IMG/VR virus record: IMGVR_UViG_3300041955_000566
DNA: 64,000 nt
From: an uncultured virus (IMG/VR IMGVR_UViG_3300041955_000566)
Taxonomy: Duplodnaviria; Heunggongvirae; Uroviricota; Caudoviricetes
Direction: 5' to 3' (one strand)
Positions 7,219 through 31,411 of the stretch are shown here, piece by piece (the first letter of the stretch is position 1; each line of letters opens with the position of its first letter). The notes beneath the pieces were generated by a model, which saw only the letters and a program-made list of their open reading frames with translations, did no database searches and had not been told where the DNA came from. Made by a program: the position numbers and the translations under genes.

Positions 7219-8238
7219 TCATGATTCCAAGAAGATTTTTTTAGCTTTGGCTGCGGCGATCCCTGCGGCGATTCTAGCACAAGCTTCAGGTGATCGTTTC
7301 TTCCCCGTATTAGATTTAGATATTTTGTTGCGCGTTTCTTGAGATGGAGATTGTCCCATCATCCTAATAGATTGCGCCGCGTTGCGTTCTGGAGAATGTT
7401 TTTTCCCTGTCAATGCTGCGCTAATAGCTGCACGCTGTTCCGGTGATCTAACTTTGTCCTTATTGCTTGCGGATATTTTTGCGCGTGTTTCAAGAGACGA
7501 AATTCGGCCAATACCAGCAGCCGCTATCGCGGCACAATGTTCCGGAGAATGTTTCCGTCCCCGATTCTTAGCAGCAGTCTTTTCGATAGCTTCGGAATTT
7601 ATCCAGTATCCACGCGCCTCAGCATTAGCTCGTCGCGTTTCCAAGGATCGCCGTATAACATCGGGAGGACGCTTTTTACCTTTTGTTTGCGCTGAAACAG
7701 CTGCCCTTCGCTCAGGGGACTGATTTAATCTCGTAAGTCGTTCTGCACTCAATCTACGATGTTCTACATTTGCCAGGAGCGATGCGGAACGTTTCTCTTT
7801 CGTCTCTAATGAATCTTTTCGCCCCGTATGGGTTCTAATTACCCCCTCGATTGCCTGCGGCGATGGCTTGCGCCCTTTAGCAGATGCCGATTGTTTTGCC
7901 CTTGTCTCAGGTGGCGTTACAACGCCCAACCGCGATTCGACACATTCGCGCTGAATATTATAAACAGTAGAAACATCATAACTATCCAGTACGCGCTGCT
8001 CATACATACTCAGTGTCTTTTTGTCGCGATTGCAAACAAGCAATATTTCAAATGAGAAGGCTTTTTGGCCGTATTTTTTGAACGCATTCTGAAGCAAAGG
8101 ATTCTTATGAATACCGCCGCGCATAGTTACGAAATGGCCCTTGCGTCGAACCCGAAATGACGATGCCTGTCCGATATAGAACTTCGGAGGCTTTTCTCCG
8201 CGCTCTACTCGAATCCGATAGATACCTGCTCTATTCAT
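7219..8238 (-). CDS. GIY-YIG homing endonuclease with NUMOD3 repeats
   Basis: GIYRI...FYIGQ motif; repeated G(R/K)KHSPE/ETRAKIS units; leaderless start behind an extended -10. Confidence 0.9.
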   Translation of the reverse strand: MNRAGIYRIRVERGEKPPKFYIGQASSFRVRRKGHFVTMRGGIHKNPLLQNAFKKYGQKAFSFEILLVCNRDKKTLSMYEQRVLDSYDVSTVYNIQRECVESRLGVVTPPETRAKQSASAKGRKPSPQAIEGVIRTHTGRKDSLETKEKRSASLLANVEHRRLSAERLTRLNQSPERRAAVSAQTKGKKRPPDVIRRSLETRRANAEARGYWINSEAIEKTAAKNRGRKHSPEHCAAIAAAGIGRISSLETRAKISASNKDKVRSPEQRAAISAALTGKKHSPERNAAQSIRMMGQSPSQETRNKISKSNTGKKRSPEACARIAAGIAAAKAKKIFLES

Positions 8239-8270
8239 GATTTGATTGTAGCACAGAGCGGATACGGCCA

Positions 8271-9065
8271 TCAGTAAATCCTCCCGTAAGGAGCGGAAGG
8301 AAAGGCACCATTGGCGACGCGGGTCGGTCTGGGACTATATCGCATTGTCCTGAATTGGGAGGTCGCGGCCCAAAATGAGTAGCCATAGCGCGTCTGATTA
8401 AAGAAGGCCTCCGACGGCGATCCGCTGGATGTCAGTTCGGTTTGAACCGTGACCGATCCCTCAGTAGCCGAACTGATTCGACCTATTAACATCGGAGCTA
8501 TCGTGCCCGTCGATGATGGGTTTCCCTGTCCATCGCGCGGCGAATAGAGCCATGCGATATGGGCTGTCAACATGTTCAAAAGCGTAGATGCCTGCGACAG
8601 GGCTCCGGTCCAGCCGCAATTCGCGAAATAGAGTCCTGCCTCATCGAAATATGCCTGCGCCATCGTCCTAGAAATGTTCGCGAACTCAGGATATCTGGCG
8701 GCCCAGACTGCATAGTTGAATGCGACGGTTTGATTCGGCCCCGGCGTCGGGGTCGGTGGGGCCGGCGGAGTCGGTGGTACCAGAGGAGATGCAACGACTT
8801 GATCCGTAAAGTCTGTGTTGTCCGCAAGCGCCGCAGTGATGTGATAAGAAAGATCTCCTGCAACATTGGTGTCCGTGATGGAGAGATATACTTCATACCA
8901 TCCATCACCGACCTCTGTGATTGGACCGGCTGCGGTATAGAATGGTGCCCCAGCTTTCGACAGCATGACGATTGGTGAGGCACCGAGTAATGGGCTAACG
9001 TGGTCAGCCGATGCCACCAGGATAAACATCCTGTTGTAGATCACCCCCTGCCGGACAACACTCAT
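8271..9065 (-). CDS. DUF4054-type head-tail connector with an extra N-terminal domain and Pro linker
   Basis: C-terminal FNY..W.ARYPEF...LTAHIA...GRISSATEGSVTV...QTRYG; PPTPPAPPTPTP linker. Confidence 0.8.
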   Translation of the reverse strand: MSVVRQGVIYNRMFILVASADHVSPLLGASPIVMLSKAGAPFYTAAGPITEVGDGWYEVYLSITDTNVAGDLSYHITAALADNTDFTDQVVASPLVPPTPPAPPTPTPGPNQTVAFNYAVWAARYPEFANISRTMAQAYFDEAGLYFANCGWTGALSQASTLLNMLTAHIAWLYSPRDGQGNPSSTGTIAPMLIGRISSATEGSVTVQTELTSSGSPSEAFFNQTRYGYSFWAATSQFRTMRYSPRPTRVANGAFPSAPYGRIY

Positions 9066-9131: not shown

Positions 9132-10844
9132 CTACCCGATACTAATATTGCTAGTATTATCAACGACATGACCACAGTATCTCCACCACATTTTTCGATA
9201 GGCTTCTTCTACTGATCTAGCATAGCGTGGGCCGCAGATACCGGAGTTCAGAAGCTCCTCGCGCAGAACAGGGCGCGCCGCCGCCAAAGTAGACCGATTC
9301 TCGCTCAGATCAATGGCCTTGTTGATGTAGTCTTTTATTGAATCCGCGATCCACGCCCGTCGCCCCATCGCGCGCAAAGCAACGCTGGTCGTGCGACCGC
9401 CGACTTGTCCGTTGTAGAGTGTGATGATAGGAACCCCCATGAACAGGATTTCGAGCGCTGTGACGCCGCCAGTATGCGGAAAGGTATCGAGCACCAGATC
9501 GACGGTCTGGTAGGCCAGCATCTGTTCTGGATGAGAACTGTCCTGCATGAATAGCAATCGCTTCGGATCGATATCGTGCATGACCTCTCGGATGCGCCGG
9601 ATCGCGTAGGGGCGCCGCATCATCTGGTCCTTGAATAACAGGCGGCTTCCAGGTGTCCGCAACATGATTTTATGCCAAGCCTCGATCGATTGTGGACTTA
9701 ACTTCTCGTAGCGGCCAAATACTCCGAAGGTGAAAAATCCCTTGTGCTCGACTGGGGGCGCGCTGATGCCTGGTTGCCCATATTCCGGCGGCGTGTATCC
9801 GATGATTGTCTGGAGATCCCATATTTTCTCGGCAAAATGTTCTCGCTCATCCTCCGGAATCGAGTACGGGCACGCCATGAAGTAATCTATCTCTGGCAGA
9901 CCTGAGCCGTGGGCAAATCCCCAACCGTGACATTGAATCGGTGCTGGTTTCCTGGTGAGCAATGGGAGTCTGTTGCCGCCAGTATGACCTGACAAATCGA
10001 CTAAGATGTCTATCTTGTCTTCTCTGATCATTGCTTCGGCTTTGTCGTCATCAAGTGCCGAGATATCGCGCCATATCGTGCCATCCATAAACTTCTTAGT
10101 CGTGGCGTCTGCATTCGGGTCCGATCCCATGCTCATGTAGCAGTATGGTTCGACCACTGACTTGTCATGGTTGAGGATGACGGTGCCAAAGATAAAAGCC
10201 GCCGAGTGCATCTTGAAGTCGCCGCCGACATATCCAACACGAATCTGACGGTCAGGAGTTTTGTCATTTGCATGGGACTTCTTCTCACCGATCCAGTGAT
10301 GATTCTCGTACCATCGCTTCCTGGCGGCATAGTTGTCCGCTGGCGACGTATTCTTGAGCGTGCGAACAAACAAAGCATTGTAGCTGGCGAGTCCATGTTT
10401 GGGATCTTTCATTAACGCTTTTTCATATGCCTCAGTTGCTTCCGCGGCGAGGCCATTTGATGTCAAAATCATGCCCTGCGCGGTATAGCCGTCAGCACTA
10501 TCAACCAGAGACAACGACTTCTCAATCGCTGGGATTGCCTCGTCGGCGCGTTCGGCCTCGAGCAACGCCAGCGCGTAATTGTACCATGTTGTGGCATTAT
10601 TTTCGTCAAATAGCAGTGCTCGCTCTAGCCGCTGCGCTGCCAAATTCACATTTCCCTGTTGCGCCGCCATGATACCGAGGTTGGCAACAATCGGCCCGCA
10701 GTTCGGATCAACGCGCAGACCTTTCATGTAAGCCTGCTCGGCTTCGGCGAGACGGTTCGCGCAATGGTGATTGAGACCAATGTCAAGCCATTCCTCGGCC
10801 ATCGAAGATCCAATACGAGGCAAAAGATGATAGGGCTGGGTCAT
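9132..10844 (-). CDS. TPR + GT41 (OGT/SPINDLY-like) protein glycosyltransferase
   Basis: TPRs, then RVGYVGGDFKMHS, IDILVDLSGHT, DLVLDTFPHTGGVTALEILFMGVP; start may be 10802. Confidence 0.9.
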   Translation of the reverse strand: MTQPYHLLPRIGSSMAEEWLDIGLNHHCANRLAEAEQAYMKGLRVDPNCGPIVANLGIMAAQQGNVNLAAQRLERALLFDENNATTWYNYALALLEAERADEAIPAIEKSLSLVDSADGYTAQGMILTSNGLAAEATEAYEKALMKDPKHGLASYNALFVRTLKNTSPADNYAARKRWYENHHWIGEKKSHANDKTPDRQIRVGYVGGDFKMHSAAFIFGTVILNHDKSVVEPYCYMSMGSDPNADATTKKFMDGTIWRDISALDDDKAEAMIREDKIDILVDLSGHTGGNRLPLLTRKPAPIQCHGWGFAHGSGLPEIDYFMACPYSIPEDEREHFAEKIWDLQTIIGYTPPEYGQPGISAPPVEHKGFFTFGVFGRYEKLSPQSIEAWHKIMLRTPGSRLLFKDQMMRRPYAIRRIREVMHDIDPKRLLFMQDSSHPEQMLAYQTVDLVLDTFPHTGGVTALEILFMGVPIITLYNGQVGGRTTSVALRAMGRRAWIADSIKDYINKAIDLSENRSTLAAARPVLREELLNSGICGPRYARSVEEAYRKMWWRYCGHVVDNTSNISIG

Positions 10845-15300: not shown

Positions 15301-15611
15301 ACAGCCCCGATCTGGACGGTCCCGGAGATTGGAACCGAACCGCTGATCGAGACCGGCCCGGAAACGGAAATAGTGCCGGAAACCGGCGGCATAGAAGCGA
15401 CGGTGACGGTGACCGTCCCGCTGACCTCCACGCTGCCGGAGACGGCAACGGGGAGCGGGTTGGACGACCCGACCATTCCCTCGTCCACTCCGGTCGCGCC
15501 GAGCGCGACCTTCATGCGCTGGAAAAGAACGCCGCCGACCTCGTCGGCGGCTACCGTGACGGTGACCGAGACGCCGGTTGTCGGGTTGAGGACGACGCCT
15601 TCTTCGCTCAT
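12327..15611 (-). CDS. 1094-aa Ser/Val/Gly/Thr hexapeptide-repeat fibre protein
   Basis: Dozens of (V/I)SG(T/S)V(S/P) units, four WLAP(T/S)QT spacers, almost no charged residues; ATGA-coupled to the upstream gene. Confidence 0.85.
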   Translation of the reverse strand: MSEEGVVLNPTTGVSVTVTVAADEVGGVLFQRMKVALGATGVDEGMVGSSNPLPVAVSGSVEVSGTVTVTVASMPPVSGTISVSGPVSISGSVPISGTVQIGAVSGTVSISGTQIISGSVSISGTPTVAGSVAISGTALVSDVNAQYTTAAPDPTSSGEIVRVAGSVPVSGTVTLNAGSSVDAQVSGTVSVSGTIPVTGNIGVSGSVQAQASGTVSISGPVAVSGSVPVSGTVSLSGTPSVTGSVSISGQVSALVSGTVSVSAMPPVSGTVSISSLPAITGAVAISGSVPVSGSVSLSGIPTITGSVSVSGPVQVSGTVTANVSVTVEDVSGTVSISGPVSISGSVPVSGTVSVTSLPAISGTISVSGGVTAAVSGTISLSGTQTIGGSVAVTNTVVISGTISVSNATGASPTATTQTGATGALVWLAPTQTVSAAVSGTISISSMPAISGTVSVSNQINISGTVAAVVSGAVAISTGIVSISSMPAVTGSVSVSGSALVSGTVSVSNTIVISGTVSISGEVISGTVSVSTGTVSISGIVGVTDALVLYTTAIPTTTATGLVVRVGGSVVVSAGMSVSAVVSGTVAISTGVVSVSNTVVISGTVSISNPTSGTISVSNTIVISGTVSISNPTSGTVTVGTGIVSISSMPAVTGSVSISGTAVVSGSVGVSGTISLSNTAVISGTVSVSNQINISGSVALIGPVLAGSQIATSGLITWLAPSQTVSVTMQGTATIAGSVAVTNTPAVTGSISISGTAVVSGSVGISGSISISGTPVVTGSISISGTPAITGAVSVSGSVVVSAGLSVAVTNTVAVALSGSPIVSATQVATAGYVNWLAPTQTITATVVGSVSVSGTATVQGTVSVSNAVSATVTVTITVTVSGTITVSNIAVSTTQVAVTAQVMWLAPTQTMTVAVSGTVSISQVGASFTTAAPVGASVTGQVVYLGQMDVARTNIQIVVTSTALPAGATTVAFTLYQGIIQSGAGTTSWTVPPGKTFRVLAIQAGISCSISTTPVRATVAILVSTTGVLPTFAATVGFLAAVQVSAGATTSGVVSNQVIGLAQDLPATSFLAMGVSAATTCNFNGAVVAGYLFP

Positions 15612-16165
15612 TTGGCCCTGGCGTTCCGGTAGTAATCGGTGTGCTCGACGACGATGGTGCTGCCGTCCGATTCGAGCGCGCGGGCGTAAACCGGCACAAT
15701 CTCATCGGCGGAACGCAAGGACACAACTTTTACTGTGCGAAGCATAGCACGAAATGCATCGGTAAAATCATCGTCGTGTTGGGATTGAGGGTTAAATGGA
15801 CTTACACTAGGCGCTGCTACACGGATGATGACCTTTGGTCGATATCCCCCACCGGAATAGATCGGAAGACGATCAAGATGGTTGATGATCTGGTCCGCGG
15901 CGCGCAGCGCAAAATTCCAGCGGGGTACGACCGAGATAGGAATAAAACCATTCAAACTCATGCCAATAGAGAGGCCTATTTGCATCTCCTCAGCAACTGG
16001 AAATTCGATCCGTTTTTCGGCCGGGACTCCGGCAAAGGTATCAGACATGGACGTGCCAGCATTGCCGACACCCTGCCCAATAAAGATTGTTCGATCTTGC
16101 TGCCCAAGCCAAGTCATCGCCCGGCAAAGTTCTTTGTGATAATCGAGAATGCCATTCTGAATCAT
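15608..16165 (-). CDS. TPP-dependent enzyme, E1-beta/transketolase pyrimidine-binding subunit
   Basis: EFPVAEEMQIGLSIGMSLNG...DQIINH; only the pyrimidine-binding domain is present. Confidence 0.85.
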   Translation of the reverse strand: MIQNGILDYHKELCRAMTWLGQQDRTIFIGQGVGNAGTSMSDTFAGVPAEKRIEFPVAEEMQIGLSIGMSLNGFIPISVVPRWNFALRAADQIINHLDRLPIYSGGGYRPKVIIRVAAPSVSPFNPQSQHDDDFTDAFRAMLRTVKVVSLRSADEIVPVYARALESDGSTIVVEHTDYYRNARAK

Positions 16166-16175
16166 GAAATAGTCT

Positions 16176-16784
16176 TCATAGCCCACCAAACTTTACGAAA
16201 GTTCCAGTCCCGACATGGGGCCATATACCGAGATTATAATCATAATGATCGAGGTCGTCGCCAGATGTTTCTTGACTTCCCCAAACTGCGGCGGTGTCGG
16301 TGTAAACCGATTTCCCGTTGTCCTCGATGATCCACCTGACCGGCAGTCCGTGGCCAACGGCATACCGGACACACTCATCAGCGAGGCCCGTGGAAGCCGT
16401 CATATCCCCTATGAAGCAGAACACCCTATCCTCGCTCCCAGAACGCATGGACGCCCATGCCAGCCCCAAGGCGATAGGCATAATCCCGGCTACCACCGCT
16501 GAGCAGATAATCCGGTGCTCCGGGAAGCAAAGCGCGATCGATCGGCCGTCGATGATGGCCGCCTTCAAATCGTCTGCCGGTATCCCCTTGAGCAGACAGT
16601 GAAAATGGGAACGCCAGGATCCGCAGACCCAGTCCTGCGGCCGGATATCCTTGAAAATCTTGATAAGTTCGAGTTCGTTGCCGTCGGCAAGATGCACCGG
16701 GGCCTTGATCTCGCCGCGGTTGAATGTCGCCGCGATGTCCCGCTCGAATGCCTGGAGGGTGGCCGGCGTCCAGTCGGTGTTCAT
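16176..16784 (-). CDS. TPP-dependent enzyme, E1-alpha-like subunit
   Basis: HLADGNE, WRSH, FIGDM...EDN TPP-binding motif. Confidence 0.85.
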   Translation of the reverse strand: MNTDWTPATLQAFERDIAATFNRGEIKAPVHLADGNELELIKIFKDIRPQDWVCGSWRSHFHCLLKGIPADDLKAAIIDGRSIALCFPEHRIICSAVVAGIMPIALGLAWASMRSGSEDRVFCFIGDMTASTGLADECVRYAVGHGLPVRWIIEDNGKSVYTDTAAVWGSQETSGDDLDHYDYNLGIWPHVGTGTFVKFGGL

Positions 16785-16984
16785 TTCTGGCTCTCTGATC
16801 CGCCACCCCATCCCTGCTCAGCTATACCCCATAGAATCACCATCAGGATGAATATTCCGGCCGCTAGACGGCTGGCGCGGGAGACCGTGCGGATCATGTT
16901 CCAGTCCTGACTGGAGACAAACAAAATTACGGCGATGCTGAGGATCGCAAACCAACTGTAAACCATCATCTTCAGTGCGGTCAC
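16781..16984 (-). CDS. Small membrane protein
   Basis: 67 aa with two hydrophobic segments; start/stop overlaps with both neighbours. Confidence 0.6.
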   Translation of the reverse strand: MTALKMMVYSWFAILSIAVILFVSSQDWNMIRTVSRASRLAAGIFILMVILWGIAEQGWGGGSESQK

Positions 16985-19284
16985 AGAAACTCCGAATGTG
17001 CCGGCATCGGCGCATCATTGATTGAGACTTGGCCAGCCCTGTACCGGAACAACCAATCATTCGTATTGTGCTGAAGACAATTGGCCCCGCAGCGCTCCTG
17101 CGGATTGAAGTAATCCGAGGCAAGGTAAGCCATCACTTCATCATAGCGGGAACTGCGCCAGATATCACGGAATCTGTCTGTGACGATATTCCCGATGTGA
17201 AATTTCGAGAACTCGCGGTTGAACAAGAATCCGCATGGCGCGATAAGGCCGTTGCCGGACATCTGAAGAATGAAGGGTGGGCCGAAGCATTTCGAATAAT
17301 TTCGCCTTCCTTCATTTTCAATTCGAGACCACTTAACGACGACTCGGAAATCCTCATCGCCCATTGCTTCTACACGCTGGAAATCTTCGAAGCATCGATC
17401 ATACTCACGATAATCGACGCCGAGCCTGTTTTCGCTATCCGATGCGCAGTGTTTGTAAATCAAGTAATCCGGCCGCAGCTCATCTCGGCAAAGCTCAGCG
17501 AGTGGAATGATCTGATCGACGAATGATGGCATTGTCACCATTTGGCAGTTGATGGTCACCGGCAGATTGTCGCGCCGCTTGATCTCCATTGCATCCTTGA
17601 CGTTTTGGATCACTTGCCAGTAGTCGCGTTCCCGCAGCCCCATGATTTCCTTGTATCGTTCCAGAGTTCCGGCACTAAAATTAAAGCGCAGATAAGAAAG
17701 GTGAGGCAAAATTCGCTCCAGAACTGCACGCCTGAGACGAACACCGTTTGTTCCAATTCCAACTTTTAGCCCACACCCTGCAGCATGTTCGATGCTTTCC
17801 TCGTACCAAGGGACAACGGTGCTTTCACCATCGCTGATCAAACTGACTCCTTTGACGCCGATCTCGGCGGCGTCCTCGAGAAAAGCGAAGGCATGATGCT
17901 TTTCAATCTTCTGGCCCTCGCTGGCCTGTAGGGTGGCGTAGCAGTTGTGAACGACTATTCCTCCCGCGACGAAGTTGTGATGTGGTCGACATTCCAAGTC
18001 ATACACTGGCGAAATACCGGCGTCTGAGATTGAGATGATGCGATCTCGTGTAACCACGATTTCACTTCCGTCTCGATCCCAGGAAGCATCCATTTGCTGA
18101 TCCGTTTGGTCCACAACACAAACAGATTCCAGCCGGCCACTGCGTAGTCCGCTATTTCCTGGGACGATTTCTCTCCGTCTCGGTGCCAGTACATTCCATG
18201 GAGTAGAAGTGCCGTCTTTCTCTTCGGATGGCCGAACAAAAAATCTGGGTTCCGCCTGATGCCACTCGGAGTCACCGCAATCCAAAAAGTCCCATCCCCG
18301 ACGAATCTCGCCCCCATTGGCTCCAGAATTGGAAACAGTTTCAACTCCGTTTTGTTGGCTGGCTTGACGTTGCCCTCGCCGCGAAACATTGCTGGCGTAA
18401 TCCGCCCATTCGCCCATGTCTGCTTCATTGTGGCGGACATCATCTGGCGCCTCTCCGCCGTGAAAGTGGCTCGCGCCTTGGCAACCACTTCTGGATTCTT
18501 CATCGGATTCTTGGCCAGCATCCGCTGCCGATGCATCTCTCTTTCTTCGTCCGATATTGATCGAGTGGTTTGAATCTTTCCCTCTGCCCATAGACGCTTG
18601 AACATCTCCGATGAGAAGTTCTCGCCATATCATTCCTTCTTGGTGGCCACCATCTTGGTCGCTACTTCTTTGCGCCGCATCGGGTTGTTCGCCTTCATAC
18701 GTGCGCTGGAGTCCTGTCGAGTTTTTAAGCTGTGCTTTCGCCCAGCGGCCTGCTTGTTTCCAAGCATCCGCTGCCTGTGCATTTCCTTTTCGGCTTCGGT
18801 CATTGGACCGCGCCGATGCTTGTTTCCTGATAGAAATGGCATAATCCCCAACCCTCAAGTCCCCTGCGGCGACCCACCCGCGATCCGTAAGAACCAGATG
18901 GTCAGCCGTGCACTTGAGTATGCCAAAAGACGTGTTAATTCTCAACCCGCTCATTCTGGGGGCGGTTTGGAATTGAGCGACGACAGCGGACTCAGAACGC
19001 CTGCCATTGTCATCAATCGAAATGACGCGATCCCCAGCGCGAACATCTACCATGCGCTTCGTCGATCCATCGGCCATGAGAACTGGCACATCAGGAAAGA
19101 CGCAAAACACACAGGCCGCATTGCATTGGCGGGTCCAGGCAACATCCATCGTGACCGGCGCAATCTTCTCGCCACGGTCCCATGCCTCGACGCGGTCGCG
19201 CCACCACCCCACCTTGGTGCCGTCGAGCTGGAGGTCGCGCACATTGACGACGTGCTCCAGAAGATCTGGCATTGCGGATGTCAT
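16981..19284 (-). CDS. Radical SAM/SPASM protein interrupted by an intein
   Basis: CNAACVF|C motif rejoined by splicing; C-terminal C..PF...SGNG.IAPC...IGNI..W...C...C. Confidence 0.9.
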   Translation of the reverse strand: MTSAMPDLLEHVVNVRDLQLDGTKVGWWRDRVEAWDRGEKIAPVTMDVAWTRQCNAACVFCVFPDVPVLMADGSTKRMVDVRAGDRVISIDDNGRRSESAVVAQFQTAPRMSGLRINTSFGILKCTADHLVLTDRGWVAAGDLRVGDYAISIRKQASARSNDRSRKGNAQAADAWKQAGRWAKAQLKNSTGLQRTYEGEQPDAAQRSSDQDGGHQEGMIWRELLIGDVQASMGRGKDSNHSINIGRRKRDASAADAGQESDEESRSGCQGASHFHGGEAPDDVRHNEADMGEWADYASNVSRRGQRQASQQNGVETVSNSGANGGEIRRGWDFLDCGDSEWHQAEPRFFVRPSEEKDGTSTPWNVLAPRRREIVPGNSGLRSGRLESVCVVDQTDQQMDASWDRDGSEIVVTRDRIISISDAGISPVYDLECRPHHNFVAGGIVVHNCYATLQASEGQKIEKHHAFAFLEDAAEIGVKGVSLISDGESTVVPWYEESIEHAAGCGLKVGIGTNGVRLRRAVLERILPHLSYLRFNFSAGTLERYKEIMGLRERDYWQVIQNVKDAMEIKRRDNLPVTINCQMVTMPSFVDQIIPLAELCRDELRPDYLIYKHCASDSENRLGVDYREYDRCFEDFQRVEAMGDEDFRVVVKWSRIENEGRRNYSKCFGPPFILQMSGNGLIAPCGFLFNREFSKFHIGNIVTDRFRDIWRSSRYDEVMAYLASDYFNPQERCGANCLQHNTNDWLFRYRAGQVSINDAPMPAHSEFL
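17944..19104 (-). mobile_element. Intein, 387 aa, inserted before the third Cys of CxxxCxxC
   Basis: Starts CVFPDVPVLMADG; block B CTADH; ends VYDLEC..HNFVAGGIVVHN/C. Confidence 0.92.
17955..18842 (-). CDS. Nested +1-frame NUMOD3 + Vsr/DUF559-like endonuclease, broken by one TGA at 18630-18632
   Basis: The 73-aa and 216-aa ORFs share a frame; NPM repeats, GRKHS, PDFLF..K.A..HGMYWH..GW..FVLW. Confidence 0.8.
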
Positions 19285-19481
19285 AATTTATCTCTCTGTT
19301 CCGTGGTCATCATAGTCCGCAGCTTGCTGTCGTCACCCATGCGATCTAGAAAAACTTCGACAGGCTTCCCGGTGAACAATCTCGCGACGCGCTCCCACTC
19401 CAGAAGCAAATGATTGCGCTCGGTGAAGGTCAACCCAGTACCAAGGAATGTCACACGAACATGACAGGATTTGTCGGTCAC
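19281..19481 (-). CDS. Hypothetical protein
   Basis: 66 aa; start/stop overlaps with both neighbours. Confidence 0.6.
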   Translation of the reverse strand: MTDKSCHVRVTFLGTGLTFTERNHLLLEWERVARLFTGKPVEVFLDRMGDDSKLRTMMTTEQRDKL

Positions 19482-20098
19482 AATCTCTCCTCCAAAGCGT
19501 TAAACCCGGTCATTTCAGAAACATACTGCGATCCCATCCCAGCGGCATCTATCATCATTAATCCAACCATATCGGTAATCGCATGCAAAATTGTTTGATG
19601 TGCAAGTTCGATGTGTCCGTATGCCTTGGATGGCGTCCAAAAATTGATATCGCCGAGACGCCGGAGTTCATTGATTACATCAAACCCTGAAAATGTGATG
19701 ACTTTCATCTTCTTAAAGAACTTCGCGACATCACAGCACCGCAGGATATTTTTCGATTTTCCAGAACTGGATATTGCAATCAGAACATTATCCTTAGCTC
19801 CATGCAGGCTGATCTGATCGCTGAAAACACGCTCATAGCCGTGATCATTTGTCAGACAGGTCATCGCTGCAATATCGCTCAGCGTCATGGCGGCGATCCC
19901 GGCCCGCATCAGATCGATTGCAACATGGCTGGCGATGGCGGCTGATCCGCCATTACCGATGACAAAAACGCGATGAGACATGATGGCAGATGCAACATTT
20001 ATGACCGCCTGGCCGAGATTCCATTCTGCCCCGAATGGTGCCGCTGTGCAGACAGTACCTTCCACTGCAGCATTGAGATCGGCAAGATATTTTTTCAT
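19478..20098 (-). CDS. gmhA: Phosphoheptose (sedoheptulose-7-phosphate) isomerase, SIS domain
   Basis: GNGGSAAIASH, NDHGYERVFSDQ, ISSSGKSKN, ELAHQ. Confidence 0.88.
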   Translation of the reverse strand: MKKYLADLNAAVEGTVCTAAPFGAEWNLGQAVINVASAIMSHRVFVIGNGGSAAIASHVAIDLMRAGIAAMTLSDIAAMTCLTNDHGYERVFSDQISLHGAKDNVLIAISSSGKSKNILRCCDVAKFFKKMKVITFSGFDVINELRRLGDINFWTPSKAYGHIELAHQTILHAITDMVGLMMIDAAGMGSQYVSEMTGFNALEERL

Positions 20099-21504
20099 TT
20101 CAGCAGTGTTCCAGCAAATTTGAGAAGCGCTACTTTTTCCACGGAACTTCTGTGACCGAGGATGCCGACCTTGATGGCTCCGGCGGCGTTTCCGAGGAAA
20201 GCTATTTGCTCCATCGTCGCACCGGCCGCAGCCAATGGAGCCGTCACCGCAAAGAAAGCATCGCCGGCACCAACGGTATCTACCACGGTTTTTGTGAAGG
20301 CTGGGGCACGGATGAAACCTTCCACCGCGTTATGGCCGATGCAACCATGCTTGCCATTCGTGATGACGAGGTTATTGCACTTGATCCTATCCATCAGATC
20401 GCCGGCCAAAGTTTCCGAATCATCGACGCGCTCGGCCAGTGCAAGGCGCGCCTCTGGGGCATCGACGCAGATGTAATCCACCCCGATTCCGTATCGTGTG
20501 ATCAGGTTAAATCCGTGGTTTCCAGTATTGGTTTGTGCGTTCACGGCGAGAAACTTGGCGCGCTGCTTGAGGGTGTCGATCATCGCTGGAGTAACAAGAC
20601 CGTGGCCGAAATCTGTGACAATGACGACATCGTATTCCTCGACTGGAGCCACAAGGTAATTGCGACCGCCATCTGGGGAGGCTTGATAAACCTCAAACAA
20701 CTTCCGCATGTAATCCTTGTCGATGTACCGGATCTTGCGCGTCGGAGATCCGGTGACGATGTCCACCGTCTTGCAGAAGCTGGCGACGTGCTTGGCCGCG
20801 GCGTGGACGCCGCCGGCAAATTCTTCGCAGCTTTCCTCTTGAACGCAGATAATTGGTTCCTTGGAGGACTTCCCCATCGTGGAGACGTAGCGGTAGTCAT
20901 CTGTGATGGAATCTCCAATCATCAAAACGCGGTAATCCTTGACGCGGTCTAGTAGAGCAACCAAGTCGTCCAGCCGGATTCGTGATCGAAAGTCCCCCAG
21001 GTAAGCCGCCAAGTCCCCGTCATGGACCCCGAAGTGGCGGTTGAGGAGAACAGACGAAGAGTGCGTTTCCTCATCAGTGAACTCAACGCGACCCCCGAAA
21101 GCAATGACCGCATCATATTCCTTTTTGAAATTTCCAGTGATGTCGGTATCGGCATATTCGATCCCCTTCACATAGATATCCGGCCGCAGTGCAGCGATCG
21201 CCGGCAATGCCGTGGCGTCGTGCACAATCGAAACGGCATCTACAAAATCAAGCGCGGCCAGCATCTCGGCGCGTTGATGTTCGTTGAAGACAGGGCGTCC
21301 AGGACCGCGATTGATGTCGGCATCGGCGGTGATGGTGACGACAAGCCATGCTCCCATCGCCTTGGCGGCGCGGAGGTGGTGCACATGGCCGATGTGGAGG
21401 AGATCAAAGGTCCCGTGGCAAAGAACCGCTGGACGGCAGCAGCGCTCGGTTAAATCTCCGAGCGCCACAATCTTTGATCTGGCGGTAGCCGATTTCAGCA
21501 TCAC
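20095..21504 (-). CDS. hldE: Bifunctional nucleotidyltransferase + PfkB kinase (HldE/RfaE-like, reversed domain order)
   Basis: HGTFDLLHIGH...GPGRPV...PDIYVKG at the N-terminus; DTVGAGD at the C-terminus. Confidence 0.85.
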   Translation of the reverse strand: MMLKSATARSKIVALGDLTERCCRPAVLCHGTFDLLHIGHVHHLRAAKAMGAWLVVTITADADINRGPGRPVFNEHQRAEMLAALDFVDAVSIVHDATALPAIAALRPDIYVKGIEYADTDITGNFKKEYDAVIAFGGRVEFTDEETHSSSVLLNRHFGVHDGDLAAYLGDFRSRIRLDDLVALLDRVKDYRVLMIGDSITDDYRYVSTMGKSSKEPIICVQEESCEEFAGGVHAAAKHVASFCKTVDIVTGSPTRKIRYIDKDYMRKLFEVYQASPDGGRNYLVAPVEEYDVVIVTDFGHGLVTPAMIDTLKQRAKFLAVNAQTNTGNHGFNLITRYGIGVDYICVDAPEARLALAERVDDSETLAGDLMDRIKCNNLVITNGKHGCIGHNAVEGFIRAPAFTKTVVDTVGAGDAFFAVTAPLAAAGATMEQIAFLGNAAGAIKVGILGHRSSVEKVALLKFAGTLLK

Positions 21505-25623: not shown

Positions 25624-25842
25624 TTAGGAAGCTACGGCGAGTGCTTCTCGAACCGCATCAGGCGAATGAGAGATAATTGAAAGCAGCGCTCTCGCCGCCT
25701 TGTCTGGGCAGCACCGTCCTTGTTCCCATTGCTGAAGGGTTCTCAGATTGAAACCAAATTTGTCAGCAAATTCCGGCTGACTCATTTGCAGACTATGGCG
25801 AAGCTTTTTAACGTCAACCACGGATATTTGAACCTTAAGCAT
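25624..25842 (-). CDS. XRE-family HTH protein
   Basis: LRHSLQMSQPEFA..FG..LRTLQQWEQGR..P. Confidence 0.85.
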   Translation of the reverse strand: MLKVQISVVDVKKLRHSLQMSQPEFADKFGFNLRTLQQWEQGRCCPDKAARALLSIISHSPDAVREALAVAS

Positions 25843-27634
25843 TGGTCATCAATTCCGTTAGGGCGTCCTCGATGATGGCCCACTGCAATTCGACGGAGTT
25901 GTCTCCGACGATGATGTCGGTTCCCTGCCGACCATCCTCGACGAGTGCCAGATGATTGAAAACGATATCAGTCATCCTGCCATCATATGGTTCACCATTA
26001 AATTTGCCAGGTTCCATGATTGGCTTGTAATGATAGCCAGGACTCAGCTCGCGCTTTTCTCCTGATTCGATTCCGTTGATGTCATCGGCAGCCCAGATTG
26101 TCAGACCGTTTTTGATGTATGGATCATCAAACGTGGCTGTTGTCCCAACTGCTCCGGCGACGTCCCACGGTTTGTGGTCGTCAACGCTGACGGGGATATG
26201 CTTCCGCAAAATCTGGACACCATTGACGCTCGGTGTCGCCTTTTCAAGTTCCTCCGGAGGTCGGAGCATCTGATAGATTTTATCCGGATCGAGCCCAAGT
26301 TCCTTGTAGCCTGGGATTTCGTCGCCCTTATACGGCGAGATGCATGCCTTGCAGATGTTCGCCACGGCAATGTGCAGACGCCCATCTTTATCCTTTTGGC
26401 GGACCGAGTCGCGATCCAGTGCCAGTCGCAGGGCGGAATCGGTGGCCGTGCATTCATCCTCGCCTTCCCCGGCACCAAACTCACGTTCGCGAATTGAATC
26501 CGCACGATTGGCCAGCGATTCGTTCCCATTCATGCGGGCGCGCCGCGCCGCGGCGAGCAGCATCTTGCGGGTGTACTTCCATTCACCGTCGGACTTTTCC
26601 TTGACCGGATACTTCCGACTCGCCGGCATCAGGAAAACACTAGCCGGCATCTCGTCACGCTTCTCGCTGCCTACGGTGCCGATGGCGGCTTCCTGGCGCT
26701 CGCTCAGTTTGCCGTGGGCGGTGTCCTTTTCGCTGAGATCATCGGCAACGCATTCCACGGCATCTTCTGTAACACCTGATTTTCTGTGCCACAGGCGTGA
26801 TTCGACATTTCCAGGCTTTCCGTAATCCGAGTGATGTGTGTATTCAGCGGAGTGCTCTCCGCTTCCGATATGCTTTCCGACCTTTCCTGTCGCCGAATAT
26901 GTTTTACCCTTATGCGAAAGGGTAGCCGGATGCGACCCACCACCACCTGATGTAAATTGGCCAGTACTAGGATCGTGCTTTGTCTCAGCATCGCCGGCTT
27001 GGCCGTCGTCTTCATCGTTGAAGAACTTCAGCTTGAGACTTTTGACGCCACCTTCATCGGTGGCCCCATTGTCGACGATACGATCCAGCGTGGCCTTGAC
27101 GCCGGGATGCAGCGGTTGCGGTGCCTGGTTCAGATGCGCCCAGGTGTAGTCATCGTGTTCATCATCAAGCGTCGGGACGAATGGCTCCGGTAGCCGGTGA
27201 TGGTAGGTGGCAAAATTCACACTCTCTCCGCTCAGCGCTTCATGGATAGGATTTTCATCCATCTCGGCGAGATGCTTCGGATCGACACCGGTTTCCTCGG
27301 CGGCCTCCCGTTTCGCGGCGTCATGGTAGCTTTCATCGGCTTCGACGCCCCCACCAGGAAAGCACCACTCCCCGGCATGATCACCGGTTCCGGATCGCTT
27401 GACGAACAGCGCCCGCCCATCGGGTGCCGTCATCATCAAGCCGGCAGCCGGGATGGCATCATCCTCGGCGTGCTCGGATTCCTGCGCTTCCTCGCCGAGA
27501 AACTTGATCAGACCGCCGACCAGTCCGCGCCAATCCTCGGGTATCATATCCCTGGCCTCGAGCGCATCCATAGCCTTCTTGCGGATGTTGGCAGGGATGC
27601 CAGCGGATGCTGTCGTCGAAAGAGCGGGCTGCAT
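25835..27634 (-). CDS. Nudix hydrolase fused to DUF2213 (putative prohead protease)
   Basis: Nudix box GGGVEADESYHDAAKREAAEETG; C-terminal DGRLH..RPPEEL..KRELSPGY..NHLALVEDGRQG. Confidence 0.85.
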   Translation of the reverse strand: MQPALSTTASAGIPANIRKKAMDALEARDMIPEDWRGLVGGLIKFLGEEAQESEHAEDDAIPAAGLMMTAPDGRALFVKRSGTGDHAGEWCFPGGGVEADESYHDAAKREAAEETGVDPKHLAEMDENPIHEALSGESVNFATYHHRLPEPFVPTLDDEHDDYTWAHLNQAPQPLHPGVKATLDRIVDNGATDEGGVKSLKLKFFNDEDDGQAGDAETKHDPSTGQFTSGGGGSHPATLSHKGKTYSATGKVGKHIGSGEHSAEYTHHSDYGKPGNVESRLWHRKSGVTEDAVECVADDLSEKDTAHGKLSERQEAAIGTVGSEKRDEMPASVFLMPASRKYPVKEKSDGEWKYTRKMLLAAARRARMNGNESLANRADSIREREFGAGEGEDECTATDSALRLALDRDSVRQKDKDGRLHIAVANICKACISPYKGDEIPGYKELGLDPDKIYQMLRPPEELEKATPSVNGVQILRKHIPVSVDDHKPWDVAGAVGTTATFDDPYIKNGLTIWAADDINGIESGEKRELSPGYHYKPIMEPGKFNGEPYDGRMTDIVFNHLALVEDGRQGTDIIVGDNSVELQWAIIEDALTELMTNA

Positions 27635-27636
27635 GG

Positions 27637-27888
27637 TCAGTGTCCCGGACCATTCGGATGATCCCAAGGTCGCGGATAGTATGGCGGGTAGTAAACCGGC
27701 GGCGGAACGTAAACTTGGGGCGGCGTATAGACTGGAGCCGGTGCTGCCACGCACTCGTAGTAGCCCTGCGCGGTCGCGGTCGGTGCCACCCATTGGAACA
27801 GGTTGCTAGGGCACGGTGCACTTGGTGCCTGCGCCTGCGCGGTGCCGACAATGAATACCGTCAGGATCAGCGCGAGAAAGACTTTCAT
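27637..27888 (-). CDS. Small exported Pro/Tyr-rich protein
   Basis: GGAGG RBS; signal peptide MKVFLALILTVFIVGTAQA. Confidence 0.65.
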   Translation of the reverse strand: MKVFLALILTVFIVGTAQAQAPSAPCPSNLFQWVAPTATAQGYYECVAAPAPVYTPPQVYVPPPVYYPPYYPRPWDHPNGPGH

Positions 27889-29660: not shown

Positions 29661-31004
29661 TCAATCCTTGAAAGGATCGAACTCGCCATCGCCAGCCATC
29701 GCCACGGCGAACGGTCGAAGTGTGTGGAGAACTTTGATTGAGCTGGCGTGGCAGGCCAAGACCTCCGGTAGCCTGCGATAGGCCATCGGGCTCTCATCAA
29801 GATCTGCGCCGACAAGAGTGACGTTGCGGCGTATCAGCCATGCATCCATCTCCGTCTTTTTGAACCGTCGCTTCGCTTCTTTTCGACCGAATAGTCGACC
29901 AGCACCGTGAACTGTCGAGTAGAGCGAGGCCCTCGCCTCCAGACTGTCGATGCCTTCGATGATGACGGCATCGTCTCCCATTGAGCCTCCGACAAAACCG
30001 CGCTGGCCGGGGAAGGCTGGTGTCGCACCTTTGCGAATTACCCACAGATCGCGACCGCCATGCGTCTCGCGCCAAGCATAGTTATGATGGTTGTGTACCA
30101 TATCAGTGACGGTTCCACCGATAATTTTGCGGACGCGTTCGACTACCCATTCGCGGCCGGCATAAGCGTAGCGACCGGCGAGTTCCATCGCGGCGATATA
30201 ACGGCGTCCGATCTCGCTGTCCTCGTCAATGATGGCTGGCGGAACGTTCATGCCATCCTTGCCGCCAGCAGCCTTAAGATATTTGGTCGCGCTGGTGTGA
30301 CCCAGTCCGCGCGATCCGAAGTGGACGCCGATCCAAACGAATCCGGCCTCGTCGCGCATTATGTCGACGTAGTGATTGCCGGAGCCAACGGTCCCGAGTT
30401 GTGCAGCCGCCCTTGAGCGGTAGTCTTCTCTGTCAGATGTACGCCATGCCTCTACATCATCGAGAAGTTCGTGCTCAACACGCTCATCGTTGGTTCGGCC
30501 AATGCCGAATGAAATGATCCGCTGGACGTCCCTGATGATCGGTCCGATATGATCATGAATGTCAGCAAATGGTGTGTCGAGCCGAACGGCCATATTTCCG
30601 CATCCGATATCAAATCCGACCCCGGAAATGCTGATCTGTTTTTCATAGGCAATTACGCCGCCGACCGGTTGAGCATAACCAAGGTGGCCGTCAGCGCAAA
30701 TCACACCAGCCACAGCATTGCCGACGCTCATACAATTGCGCATCTGCATCAGCGTGTTTTCATCATGCTCTCCAAATACCTTGAGCGGACTGTTCTGGTA
30801 TTGGTGTGCCTGCGGAGCGATGGTCGGCAAAGAGGCCGCAAGTTCGGCGGCTTCCTTGCCCGCATGTTCCTTGCGAGCGGCATCGCGGAATGTACACCAA
30901 GCCGGCATTCCCCTGCCTTCGCCGAGGCGCCCATCCGGATCGTGACCGGCGATGCGCGCTAATTCGCGAGCGCGAGCCTGATATGGATCTGATCTTTGAT
31001 TCAT
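29661..31004 (-). CDS. rtcB: RtcB RNA ligase with an N-terminal extension
   Basis: ADGHLG..QPVGG, GFDIGCG, LGTVGSGNHY, HFGSRG, HHN, RKGAT, HGAGR, DESP.AY. Confidence 0.95.
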   Translation of the reverse strand: MNQRSDPYQARARELARIAGHDPDGRLGEGRGMPAWCTFRDAARKEHAGKEAAELAASLPTIAPQAHQYQNSPLKVFGEHDENTLMQMRNCMSVGNAVAGVICADGHLGYAQPVGGVIAYEKQISISGVGFDIGCGNMAVRLDTPFADIHDHIGPIIRDVQRIISFGIGRTNDERVEHELLDDVEAWRTSDREDYRSRAAAQLGTVGSGNHYVDIMRDEAGFVWIGVHFGSRGLGHTSATKYLKAAGGKDGMNVPPAIIDEDSEIGRRYIAAMELAGRYAYAGREWVVERVRKIIGGTVTDMVHNHHNYAWRETHGGRDLWVIRKGATPAFPGQRGFVGGSMGDDAVIIEGIDSLEARASLYSTVHGAGRLFGRKEAKRRFKKTEMDAWLIRRNVTLVGADLDESPMAYRRLPEVLACHASSIKVLHTLRPFAVAMAGDGEFDPFKD

Positions 31005-31064
31005 GATTGGATTCTCTCCTACGCACTTCACATACATTTCGTCATCGTGAACATCCAGATGATT

Positions 31065-31093: not shown

Positions 31094-31168
31094 TGGCGAG
31101 GGAGCCAAGATTTGAACTTGGATCGCAAGGTTTTGGAGACCTGCATTCTACCGTTGAAATACACCCCC
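31094..31168 (-). tRNA. trnW: tRNA-Trp(CCA)
   Basis: Manual cloverleaf; encoded CCA end. Confidence 0.9.
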
Positions 31169-31172
31169 GAAT

Positions 31173-31249
31173 TGGCACTGGCGTGGTGAGTCGAACACCT
31201 TAGAGCGCGGTTCACAGCCGTCTCGCGGATACCCTCCGCTAACGCCAGC
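31173..31249 (-). tRNA. trnH: tRNA-His(GTG), no encoded G-1
   Basis: Manual cloverleaf; loop CT-GTG-AA. Confidence 0.85.
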
Positions 31250-31255
31250 ATGAAA

Positions 31256-31329
31256 TGGTAGCGGTCCCCGGTGATGATCCGGGCAAACGGTCCTTATGAG
31301 AGACCATCGCGCACCAGCGCGCGACCGCT
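31256..31329 (-). tRNA. tRNA(CAT), atypical, probably elongator Met
   Basis: GGTCT-CTCATAA-GGACC; short D loop. Confidence 0.75.
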
Positions 31330-31333
31330 GTAT

Positions 31334-31407
31334 TGGCAGCCGGTGAAGGAATCGAACCCTCGTAGGTGCCTTCAAAGGGCACCGTCCTGCCACTGAACGA
31401 ACCGGCC
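31334..31407 (-). tRNA. trnQ: tRNA-Gln(TTG)
   Basis: Manual cloverleaf; CCA. Confidence 0.9.
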
Positions 31408-31411
31408 GTAT

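What the first reader, a model, noticed from the sequence alone, without database searches (positions are those of the whole stretch)
17944..19104. Intein whose endonuclease is overprinted in a different reading frame
Seen: the 387-aa intein has normal N- and C-terminal splicing blocks, but its central ~260 residues look like non-protein shadow sequence. The +1 frame over 17955-18842 encodes a recognisable NUMOD3-like DNA-binding region plus a Vsr/DUF559-like nuclease with its own ATG (18842) behind a G-rich RBS-like stretch. The intein frame has no stop across these ~890 nt. Known: canonical inteins carry the endonuclease in frame. Inference: a free-standing endonuclease invaded a mini-intein out of frame and is tolerated because the junk loop is spliced out, giving a dual-coding selfish element with separately translated nuclease.
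Basis: partly seen in the sequence, partly recalled or inferred. Interest (0 to 1): 0.85.

Follow-up and report, generated by a model that had tools for sequence, protein, structure and literature searches.

The report
Intein hiding an out-of-frame endonuclease gene
A self-splicing protein insert (intein) in a large phage's iron-sulfur enzyme gene carries its DNA-cutting "homing" gene one base out of frame, and selection keeps the enzyme's frame free of stops; the layout is real and widespread, but the general design was described in 2025-2026.

Summary
A radical SAM/SPASM gene (16981-19284, minus strand) carries a 387-aa intein (17944-19104) before the third Cys of CxxxCxxC. The intein's ~260-residue centre has no endonuclease domain in frame. 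The +1 frame encodes a Vsr-like nuclease with 20 close homologs (E 1e-73 to 1e-99).

It is not a sequencing artefact. The window and 11 of 12 non-redundant related loci have the nuclease gene at +1 inside an intein of a radical SAM gene. All 12 have zero host-frame stops where 5-15 are expected (P(0) at most 48/20000).

Between-locus substitutions follow the nuclease frame in the loop and the intein frame in blocks F/G. Extein and intein trees conflict (AU p 0.00035 and 0.015), which fits homing.

Only the +1 offset lets synonymous changes alone remove every host-frame stop.

The kind is known. Preprints of 2025-2026 describe out-of-frame LAGLIDADG and endonuclease VII-like genes and antisense Vsr-like genes in inteins. 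This scan has noted similar +1 Vsr-like cases on other DNA. New here are a same-strand +1 Vsr-like gene and radical SAM hosts in uncultured phages. Structure prediction failed.

The parts
16981..19284 (-). Host gene: radical SAM/SPASM protein precursor, 767 aa plus stop, stop-free through the intein
   Evidence: Pfam Radical_SAM E 1.6e-9, SPASM E 5.1e-7, Intein_splicing E 2.7e-11
19105..19284 (-). N-extein (aa 1-60), ending in C-N-A-A-C-V-F of the CxxxCxxC cluster motif
   Evidence: alignment with intein-bearing homologs
17944..19104 (-). Intein, 387 aa (Cys1 ... His-Asn), followed by Cys+1, which is the third cluster Cys
18829..19104 (-). Intein N-terminal splicing part (intein residues 1-92; blocks A and B with T-A-D-H)
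   Evidence: invariant C1, G13, H69, T73, G76, W77
18061..18828 (-). Host-frame loop (about 256 residues). Hydrophilic filler with no in-frame endonuclease domain; it shows 'shadows' of nuclease motifs and is absent in the mini-intein allele P0179
17944..18060 (-). Intein C-terminal splicing part (blocks F and G). Here purifying selection acts in the host frame
   Evidence: mismatch 0.20/0.12/0.54 at host codon positions 1/2/3
18633..18851 (-). +1-frame endonuclease gene, 5' part (TTG 18851, ATG 18842) with NNPM[KR]-type repeats. Its start overlaps intein codons G-D-Y-A
18630..18632 (-). In-frame TGA in the endonuclease frame, at a column that is Arg in 14 of 20 homologs. It is silent for host-frame openness
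   Evidence: the same base is read in contigs of runs X1 and X2
17955..18629 (-). +1-frame endonuclease gene, 3' part (a 216-aa ORF runs from ATG 18605). It holds the Vsr-like nuclease core (NPDF ... HGxYWH ... DY..GW) and a tail overlapping intein blocks F/G. The stop TAG 17955-17957 lies inside the block G codons GGA-ATA-GTC
16984..17943 (-). C-extein (aa 448-767), radical SAM core and SPASM domain

Best explanation
This is a contiguous class-1 intein in a phage radical SAM/SPASM gene. The usual in-frame homing-endonuclease domain is replaced by a free-standing Vsr-like homing endonuclease gene (HEG) written in the +1 frame of the same strand.

Proposed mechanism, with what is shown and what is inferred:
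- The host mRNA is translated straight through. This is shown only indirectly: the host frame is kept stop-free by selection on the HEG's synonymous sites, which never place a T-ending codon before an AA-, AG- or GA-starting codon.
- The ~256-residue hydrophilic read-through loop is excised with the intein by protein splicing (inferred). All canonical splicing residues are present, and a natural mini-intein allele lacks the loop.
- The HEG is translated separately from an internal start lying in the last codons of the intein's N-terminal part (inferred). A start at the homologous position is conserved in relatives.
- The HEG is expected to cut intein-free alleles, so that intein and HEG home together as one unit (inferred). 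Extein and intein trees conflict, which fits this.
- The +1 offset has a reason in the genetic code. Only with the host in the HEG's -1 frame can every stop be avoided by synonymous changes. The other frame would carry unavoidable TGAs from the HEG's Met-Lys/Asn/Thr dipeptides.
- In this window's copy the HEG carries a premature TGA at a conserved Arg column. It is probably inactive or truncated, an early decay stage of the homing cycle, while the host frame is still open.
For: Anatomy.

The +1 frame is a real, conserved protein:
- 20 homologs with E 1e-73 to 1e-99 among 264 candidates.
- 1671 representatives at E up to 1e-3, and 33 at E up to 1e-30.
- Residues aligned to Vsr Asp51 and Trp68-His69 are invariant in 21 of 21 family members and present here.
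- A family profile hits 3r3p_A at E 1.4e-7 and Vsr chains at E 2e-6 to 6e-6.
- 9 of 21 members match Pfam Vsr at E up to 0.01.

Stop avoidance:
- The window and 11 of 12 non-redundant relatives' loci found by HEG homology have 0 host-frame stops. These are L008, L009, L010, L011 (partial), L012, L014, L015, L016, L018, L019 and L020.
- Synonymous permutation expects 4.9-15.3 stops. P(0) is 0/20000 or 0/10000 in 10 loci, 1/20000 in L011 and 48/20000 in L009.
- T-ending codons before AA/AG/GA codons number 0 of 44-99 per locus, against 17-35% at other junctions.

Controls:
- The one non-embedded relative, L017, has 28 stops where 27.2 are expected.
- In-frame relatives have 40-51 stops, as expected by permutation. 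C-exteins have 2-18.

Frame of selection:
- Mismatches peak at HEG codon position 3 in 15 of 15 pairs.
- Amino-acid identity is higher in the HEG frame in 15 of 15 pairs.
- In the last 24 intein codons, mismatches peak at host position 3.

The loop is dispensable: the mini-intein allele P0179 lacks it.

Mobility: the extein split (100/99) and the intein split (95/94) are incompatible; AU p is 0.00035 and 0.015.

Frame logic: each HEG has 2-8 Met-[IMTNK] dipeptides, and the third frame has 7-23 stops.

Not an artefact or an intron: contigs of 3 runs show no differences over the parts they cover, including the TGA and the C-terminal junction, and there is no Rfam intron match.
Against: - There is no expression, splicing or cleavage evidence of any kind.
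- This copy's HEG is interrupted by a TGA. The downstream ATG at 18605 is not a conserved start.
- The G-rich stretch before ATG 18842 encodes conserved intein residues. Promoter-like sites are not above chance (3 found, 2.1 expected). RNA folding near the start is unremarkable (z -0.54).
- Disorder of the loop is not shown. Structure prediction failed. A crude charge-hydropathy test puts the loops on the disordered side in 10 of 11 loci, but it does the same for the HEG frame in 10 of 11, so it does not discriminate.
- Sequence divergence (36-54% amino-acid identity) is too high for a proper dN/dS estimate.
- L007 and runs X1-X3 may be the window's own source, so they are not independent.
- The trees have only 10 rows. 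P0172-P0174 and P0177 were left out because their inteins sit at other sites.
Confidence: 0.85

Rival explanations
1. Assembly or sequencing artefact. The endonuclease is really in frame with the intein, and two compensating indel errors shift it.
For: Depth in the public runs is low (2-5x contigs). The window itself has a stop in the +1 frame.
Against: Eleven divergent relatives from different metagenome and viral contigs have the same +1 offset. The HEG ends at a stop inside intein block G and starts at its own Met. Twenty independently predicted proteins begin with Met, and 19 of 20 end in the same overlapped tail. Contigs of 3 runs show no indel over the parts they cover.
Confidence: 0.01
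2. Decaying intein. A formerly in-frame endonuclease domain was frameshifted and is drifting, and the host frame is open by chance.
For: This copy has a TGA in the +1 frame. In-frame Vsr-like inteins exist (L001-L006; P0160 and P0133).
Against: The +1 frame is conserved as protein at E 1e-42 to 1e-99, with third-position-biased substitutions in 15 of 15 pairs. A chance open host frame has probability at most 48/20000 per locus, and it occurs in 12 loci.
Confidence: 0.03
3. Fractured gene with a split intein, as in Dassa 2009. The N- and C-halves are made separately and joined by trans-splicing, with the HEG between them.
For: The nuclease superfamily is the same, and the HEG's 3' end overlaps the C-terminal intein part as in 15 of the published loci. 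P0050 and P0127 are N-extein plus N-intein plus HEG proteins that end at a stop.
Against: There is no stop in the host frame in the window or the 11 relatives. There is no non-coding spacer before the HEG and no conserved Met ahead of block F. Gene callers predicted the host ORF as one protein in P0169-P0171, P0175, P0176, P0178 and P0180.
Confidence: 0.03
4. The nuclease is made by programmed +1 ribosomal frameshifting from the host frame, as an N-extein/N-intein/nuclease fusion, rather than from an internal start.
For: The offset is always +1. In-frame N-intein-nuclease fusions exist in relatives (P0050, P0127). No convincing ribosome-binding site was shown.
Against: The +1 ORF opens only 4-17 codons before a Met in the window, L008, L009 and L011. 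Homologs start at a conserved M-S-T-R-R-P-L-T or M-x-I-M position. No slippery motif is shared among the loci (by eye). The code-based reason for +1 explains the offset without frameshifting.
Confidence: 0.06

Closest known systems
Non-canonical inteins with a homing endonuclease in another reading frame. Two cases: the cyanobacterial dnaX intein with a +2-ORF LAGLIDADG (bioRxiv 10.64898/2026.09.14.751524; abstract, Results and one Discussion section read), and actinobacteriophage inteins with a frame-3 endonuclease VII-like gene (bioRxiv 10.1101/2025.01.02.630785; passages read). Both cite Gorbalenya 1998, which is not held and was not read.
   Same: A contiguous intein with intact splicing parts. 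The centre is an unstructured, stop-free read-through. A complete endonuclease ORF lies in another frame of the same DNA. Purifying selection follows the endonuclease frame. Secondary invasion by a free-standing gene is the suggested origin.
   Different: The nuclease here is Vsr-like, the offset is +1, and the hosts are radical SAM genes of uncultured (probably jumbo) phages. The actinophage preprint reports Vsr-like genes in inteins only on the antisense strand.
Fractured genes: split inteins with a free-standing Vsr-like endonuclease gene between the halves (Dassa et al. 2009, PMC2677866; abstract, section 13 and passages read)
   Same: A Vsr-like nuclease with an N-terminal repeat region, on the same strand, sitting between the intein's N- and C-parts. 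The HEG's 3' end overlaps the C-terminal intein coding region. Found mainly in phage and environmental DNA.
   Different: The host frame is not broken here (0 stops), and there is no 27-51-nt spacer. The HEG start also overlaps the N-intein. The Glu that Dassa et al. call invariant at the Vsr Phe62 position is Leu in this clade.
I-Bth0305I, the EDxHD homing endonuclease prototype (Taylor et al. 2011, PMC3239194; PDB 3r3p; passages read)
   Same: It is the best solved-structure match of the family profile (E 1.4e-7). It has the same bipartite plan, with an N-terminal DNA-binding repeat region and a C-terminal Vsr-fold nuclease.
   Different: I-Bth0305I is intron-encoded. This clade keeps the Vsr-type HG..WH signature where I-Bth0305I reads NG..WA in the alignment. 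No activity data exist for this clade.
[quoted passage not shown] 2025, PMC11855218; abstract, passages and section 4.3 read)
   Same: A hidden out-of-frame homing endonuclease in an uninterrupted host ORF. The read-through is tolerated as a loop.
   Different: ShiLan has no intein, so the loop stays in the mature protein. It is an HNH nuclease in the third frame.

Membership tests
Class 1 intein (Hint fold) | N-terminal Cys or Ser nucleophile | tested here: met
   Cys1 at aa 61 of the precursor; invariant in 10 of 10 aligned inteins
Class 1 intein (Hint fold) | Block B TxxH | tested here: met
   T-A-D-H; the His is invariant and the Thr nearly invariant in alignment A2
Class 1 intein (Hint fold) | C-terminal His-Asn followed by Cys, Ser or Thr at +1 | tested here: met
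   ...VVHN|C; H386 and N387 are invariant; Cys+1 is the third Cys of CxxxCxxC
Class 1 intein (Hint fold) | Profile match above the curated threshold | tested here: met
   PF14890 Intein_splicing, 45.7 bits against a cut-off of 35.8
Class 1 intein (Hint fold) | Protein splicing activity | not testable with these tools
   Needs expression and a gel or mass spectrometry
Vsr-like / EDxHD homing endonucleases | Homology to the Vsr nuclease core | tested here: met
   Family profile A3 against the PDB: 3r3p_A E 1.4e-7, 1cw0_A E 2e-6. 9 of 21 members match Pfam Vsr at E up to 0.01. The window's own copy is sub-threshold (15.3 bits against 27).
Vsr-like / EDxHD homing endonucleases | Residues equivalent to Vsr Asp51 and His69 (with Trp68) | tested here: met
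   NPDF and YWH align to Vsr PDF and FWH. D203, W222 and H223 are present in 21 of 21 members, including the window.
Vsr-like / EDxHD homing endonucleases | Invariant Glu at the position of Vsr Phe62 (Dassa 2009) | tested here: not met
   The aligned residue is a conserved Leu (A-l-L-v-H-G against V-I-F-T-H-G). I-Bth0305I has Glu there. I therefore call the clade Vsr-like and do not file it as an EDxHD member.
Vsr-like / EDxHD homing endonucleases | N-terminal NUMOD-type DNA-binding repeats | tested here: inconclusive
   Pfam NUMOD3 was not found at E up to 1. Repeated R-M-K-x-N-N-P-M-K motifs are conserved. The nearest Atlas clusters carry NUMOD3 in 39-77% of members (a lead only).
Vsr-like / EDxHD homing endonucleases | Site-specific cleavage of the element-free allele | not testable with these tools
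   Needs a biochemical assay with an intact relative
[quoted passage not shown] | Contiguous, stop-free intein ORF whose centre lacks an in-frame endonuclease domain | tested here: met
   0 stops. Only Hint-type Pfam hits in the host frame.
[quoted passage not shown] | Complete endonuclease ORF in another frame over the centre | tested here: inconclusive
   It is complete in 11 relatives. In the window it is interrupted by one TGA.
[quoted passage not shown] | Purifying selection in the endonuclease frame, and only stop avoidance in the host frame | tested here: met
   A formal dN/dS was not possible at this divergence.
Fractured genes (split intein plus free-standing endonuclease) | Host gene broken into two ORFs | tested here: not met
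   The host frame is uninterrupted in the window and all 11 embedded relatives

The most novel reading that the evidence does not exclude
This Vsr-like clade is a specialist of overprinting. A stop-free -1 frame would be a heritable property of the endonuclease gene itself, and the genetic code makes it free of amino-acid cost only at the +1 offset. That would let the gene sit in, and move between, mini-inteins at several sites of phage radical SAM genes without breaking them. At least five DNA-verified contexts were seen: before the 1st, 2nd or 3rd Cys of CxxxCxxC, and one site elsewhere. The family also shows every state: free-standing, fused to the N-intein only, +1 overprinted, fully in frame, and deleted to a mini-intein. 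It would then be the missing series between 'fractured genes' and canonical endonuclease-bearing inteins.
Probability: 0.35. Interest if true: 0.6.

Novelty: new variant of a known kind. Interest (0 to 1): 0.45.

Why it matters
It shows that an intein can shelter a separately encoded homing endonuclease of the Vsr-like type on the same strand. The two reading frames share ~890 nt under different constraints: protein sequence in one, mere openness in the other.

The recurrence is broad. The window plus 11 relatives cover several insertion sites in radical SAM genes of uncultured phages. Such elements are therefore common, and annotation misses them systematically. Gene callers report either the host ORF or the nuclease, never both, and the intein looks 'decayed'.

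The clade contains free-standing, N-fused, overprinted, in-frame and deleted forms. That makes it a good natural series for testing how free-standing endonuclease genes become intein domains.

The codon rule (never NNT before AA, AG or GA) is a simple signature. It could be used to find other hidden out-of-frame genes.

Tried and rejected
No fold search was possible, so neither the fold of the nuclease nor the disorder of the loop is shown structurally.
- Whole genome: none is held.
- RNA evidence: no RNA holder is listed among the runs.
- Runs X1-X3 are contigs at depth 2-5 and may be the window's own source.
- Charge-hydropathy test: it does not separate the loop from the nuclease frame.
- Promoter scan: 3 sites against 2.1 expected.
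- RNA fold around the nuclease start: z -0.54.
- Rfam: no intron or other family at E up to 1, apart from a chance snoRNA hit.
- GenBank phages: no tblastn match at E up to 1e-5 among 50,697 records.
- PHROGs: no family for the nuclease.
- Other copies in the window: none. The methylase at 50973-52271 has a long insert but no hidden ORF.
- A scan with the broad alignment A3 was impossible, so I used the smaller A4.
- Gorbalenya 1998 (PMC147447) is not held. I know it only through the citing preprints.
- Literature searches for this exact layout. One search found the two preprints. None of the listed papers puts a same-strand out-of-frame Vsr-like gene in an intein, or such an intein in a radical SAM gene. 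Supplements of the preprints are closed and might list such cases.
Full report
WHAT IS THERE

The minus strand carries a 767-aa ORF at 16981-19284. It matches Pfam Radical_SAM, SPASM and Intein_splicing.

The +1 Cys is therefore the third Cys of CxxxCxxC.

Block B (T-A-D-H) and blocks F/G are present, and they are invariant across ten aligned homologous inteins.

Between the N-terminal ~92 and C-terminal ~39 intein residues lie ~256 residues. They are rich in G, S, A, R, D and Q (GRAVY -1.09) and contain no endonuclease domain in frame.

THE +1 FRAME

Read one base downstream, 17955-18851 gives 298 codons. Features:
- Repeated R-M-K-x-N-N-P-M-K motifs.
- A core reading N-P-D-F ... L-L-H-G-x-Y-W-H-R-D ... 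D-Y-x-x-G-W.

On its own the sequence matches Pfam Vsr only weakly (E 0.019) and NCBIfam vsr at E 0.0093.

Read through by reference, it finds 20 proteins at E 1e-73 to 1e-99 with 51-59% identity, covering 83-99% of it including the stop position.

In the alignment:
- The TGA column is Arg in 14 of 20 homologs, Lys in 3, and Asn, His and Glu in one each. The likeliest history is a CGA-to-TGA change.
- The residues that HMMER aligns to Vsr Asp51 and Trp68-His69 are present in 21 of 21.

A profile search of 1.84 billion representatives finds 1671 relatives at E up to 1e-3, 180 at up to 1e-10, and 33 at up to 1e-30.

A profile of 83 of them hits the I-Bth0305I nuclease domain (3r3p_A, E 1.4e-7) and Vsr (E 2e-6 to 6e-6) among solved structures. 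9 of 21 close members reach Pfam Vsr at E up to 0.01. The ESM Atlas places it next to phage DUF559/NUMOD3/Vsr clusters (score 0.95; a lead only).

One published hallmark of the EDxHD group is missing: the Glu at the Vsr Phe62 position is a conserved Leu here. I call the clade Vsr-like and do not file it as EDxHD.

A TELLING DETAIL

19 of the 20 homologs end in the same tail, [RH]-Q-[FY]-[MT]-T-W-N-...-T-T-S. That tail is the +1 reading of the intein's block F/G codons (V-Y-D-L-E-C-x-P-H-H-N-F). In the window the nuclease stop TAG sits inside the block G codons GGA-ATA-GTC.

These independently predicted proteins therefore also lie inside inteins, out of frame.

IS IT MORE THAN CHANCE OR ERROR?

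Searching DNA collections by nuclease homology gave 15 loci. L007 is identical to the window, L013 duplicates L010, and L021 is a true Vsr. That leaves 12 non-redundant relatives.

In 11 of them the nuclease ORF lies at +1 inside an intein of a radical SAM gene whose frame runs through without a stop. These are L008, L009, L010, L011 (partial), L012, L014, L015, L016, L018, L019 and L020.

I permuted synonymous codons within each nuclease gene. The expected number of host-frame stops is 4.9-15.3. Zero stops occurred in:
- 0 of 20000 or 0 of 10000 permutations for ten loci;
- 1 of 20000 for L011;
- 48 of 20000 for L009.

The signature is simple. Host-frame stops can arise only where a T-ending nuclease codon precedes a codon starting AA, AG or GA. 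Such T's number 0 of 44-99 per locus, against 17-35% at other junctions.

Controls:
- The twelfth relative, L017, is not embedded in an open frame. It has 28 stops where 27.2 are expected, and 28 of 110 such T's.
- In-frame relatives in Sulfurovum NifU-like inteins have 40-51 stops, matching permutation.
- The C-exteins of the same host genes have 2-18 stops in that frame.

Logan contigs of three wetland runs match the window without differences or indels over the parts they cover, including the TGA and the C-terminal junction. Depth is low, and they may be the source sample.

WHICH FRAME IS UNDER SELECTION?

Across the loop, differences between loci peak at the nuclease frame's third codon position in 15 of 15 pairs. 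This is the same pattern the exteins show in the host frame. Amino-acid identity is higher in the nuclease frame in 15 of 15 pairs.

In the last 24 intein codons, which the nuclease tail overlaps, the pattern flips to the host frame: 0.20/0.12/0.54 at host positions 1/2/3.

Constraint therefore runs host frame, then nuclease frame, then host frame.

Divergence is too high for a formal dN/dS.

WHY ALWAYS +1?

With the host in the nuclease's -1 frame, every potential stop can be removed by a synonymous change, because each NNT codon has an NNC synonym.

In the other frame, every Met followed by Ile, Met, Thr, Asn or Lys gives an unavoidable TGA. Each nuclease gene has 2-8 such dipeptides, several of them in the conserved R-M-K / P-M-K motifs. 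That frame holds 7-23 stops.

This is an inference from the code and the sequences. It accounts for 12 of 12 loci having the same offset.

MOBILITY AND LIFE CYCLE

A search with the host protein found these alleles:
- Contiguous alleles whose loops show host-frame 'shadows' of nuclease motifs: P0169, P0170, P0171, P0175 and P0176. P0176 was confirmed on DNA as L016.
- The same kind of intein three residues upstream, before the second Cys: P0174.
- Mini-inteins: P0179 and P0173.
- A half-deleted intein: P0172.
- An unrelated LAGLIDADG intein elsewhere in the gene: P0177.
- Intein-free proteins of 422-426 aa.

The C-extein tree and the intein tree carry incompatible well-supported splits (100/99 and 95/94). 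Each data set rejects the other's grouping (AU p 0.00035 and 0.015). These trees have 10 rows; P0172-P0174 and P0177 were left out because their inteins sit at other sites. This fits horizontal movement of intein and nuclease as a unit.

The window's TGA fits the decay phase of a homing cycle.

CONTEXT

The window is phage DNA. It has a portal protein, a Mu-F-like protein, a minor capsid protein, DUF4054, DUF2213, RtcB and 30 tRNA genes at 31094-37223. Several relatives lie on IMG/VR viral contigs of 62-176 kb. No cultured phage in GenBank has a match.

WHAT IS KNOWN

- Dassa et al. 2009 described Vsr-like genes between split intein halves, with a 6-69 bp overlap onto the C-intein.
- A 2025 preprint on actinobacteriophage inteins reports antisense LAGLIDADG, antisense Vsr-like and frame-3 endonuclease VII-like genes inside contiguous inteins. 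It says Vsr-like genes were otherwise known only with split inteins.
- A 2026 preprint shows a +2-ORF LAGLIDADG in the cyanobacterial dnaX intein with frame-dependent omega, crediting Gorbalenya 1998.
- Arsenault et al. 2025 describe an out-of-frame HNH gene in a methylase gene without an intein.

The kind is therefore known. A same-strand +1 Vsr-like gene in contiguous inteins, and radical SAM hosts, did not appear in the papers found. The preprints' supplements could not be seen.

Earlier notes of this scan report the same layout on other DNA. I treat them as leads, not as support.

VERDICT

This is a real, selected dual-coding element. It is a new variant of a recently described kind.

Not shown: splicing, separate translation, cleavage, and loop disorder (the structure machine failed).

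Noticed in passing
window 31094-37223 (-): An array of 30 tRNA genes, with an RtcB ligase gene just downstream (29661-31037). Together with the portal, Mu-F-like and capsid genes, this marks the window as part of a large (jumbo-type) phage genome.
   Followed up: partly
window 7219-8271 (-): A second, unrelated homing-endonuclease-like gene: a free-standing 350-aa ORF with a GIY-YIG-type N-terminus (by eye) and many NUMOD3 repeats (Pfam E 3e-13).
   Followed up: partly
window 42361-45444 (-) and 25835-27793 (-): Unusual fusions: a phage portal protein fused to a histidine phosphatase domain (1027 aa), and NUDIX fused to DUF2213 (652 aa).
   Followed up: no
window 15608-16811 and 19478-21504 (-): The intein-bearing radical SAM gene sits in a sugar-nucleotide-like module: split transketolase/E1-like genes, a SIS-domain protein, and a PfkB kinase plus cytidylyltransferase fusion. 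A TPR/GT41 glycosyltransferase lies at 9132-10844.
   Followed up: no
proteins P0050 (588 aa) and P0127 (600 aa): B12-binding radical SAM N-extein, N-intein and Vsr-like nuclease all in one frame, ending at a stop before any C-intein. This is a further arrangement, with the nuclease fused to the N-half. No DNA was seen.
   Followed up: no
proteins P0172, P0173, P0174: In the same radical SAM/SPASM family, a related intein sits three residues upstream, before the second Cys of CxxxCxxC. It occurs as a ~490-aa form with nuclease 'shadows', a ~195-aa half-deleted form and a ~123-aa mini-intein.
   Followed up: partly
L001-L006 (Sulfurovum and Campylobacterota MAG contigs), e.g. L001:2302-4224: NifU-like proteins with an intein carrying a distant Vsr-like domain in frame. 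The domain lacks the HG..WH motif, so it is probably degenerate.
   Followed up: partly
L018:1186-4272: This intein ends in Glu-Asn instead of His-Asn before Cys+1, yet keeps the +1 nuclease gene and an open host frame.
   Followed up: no
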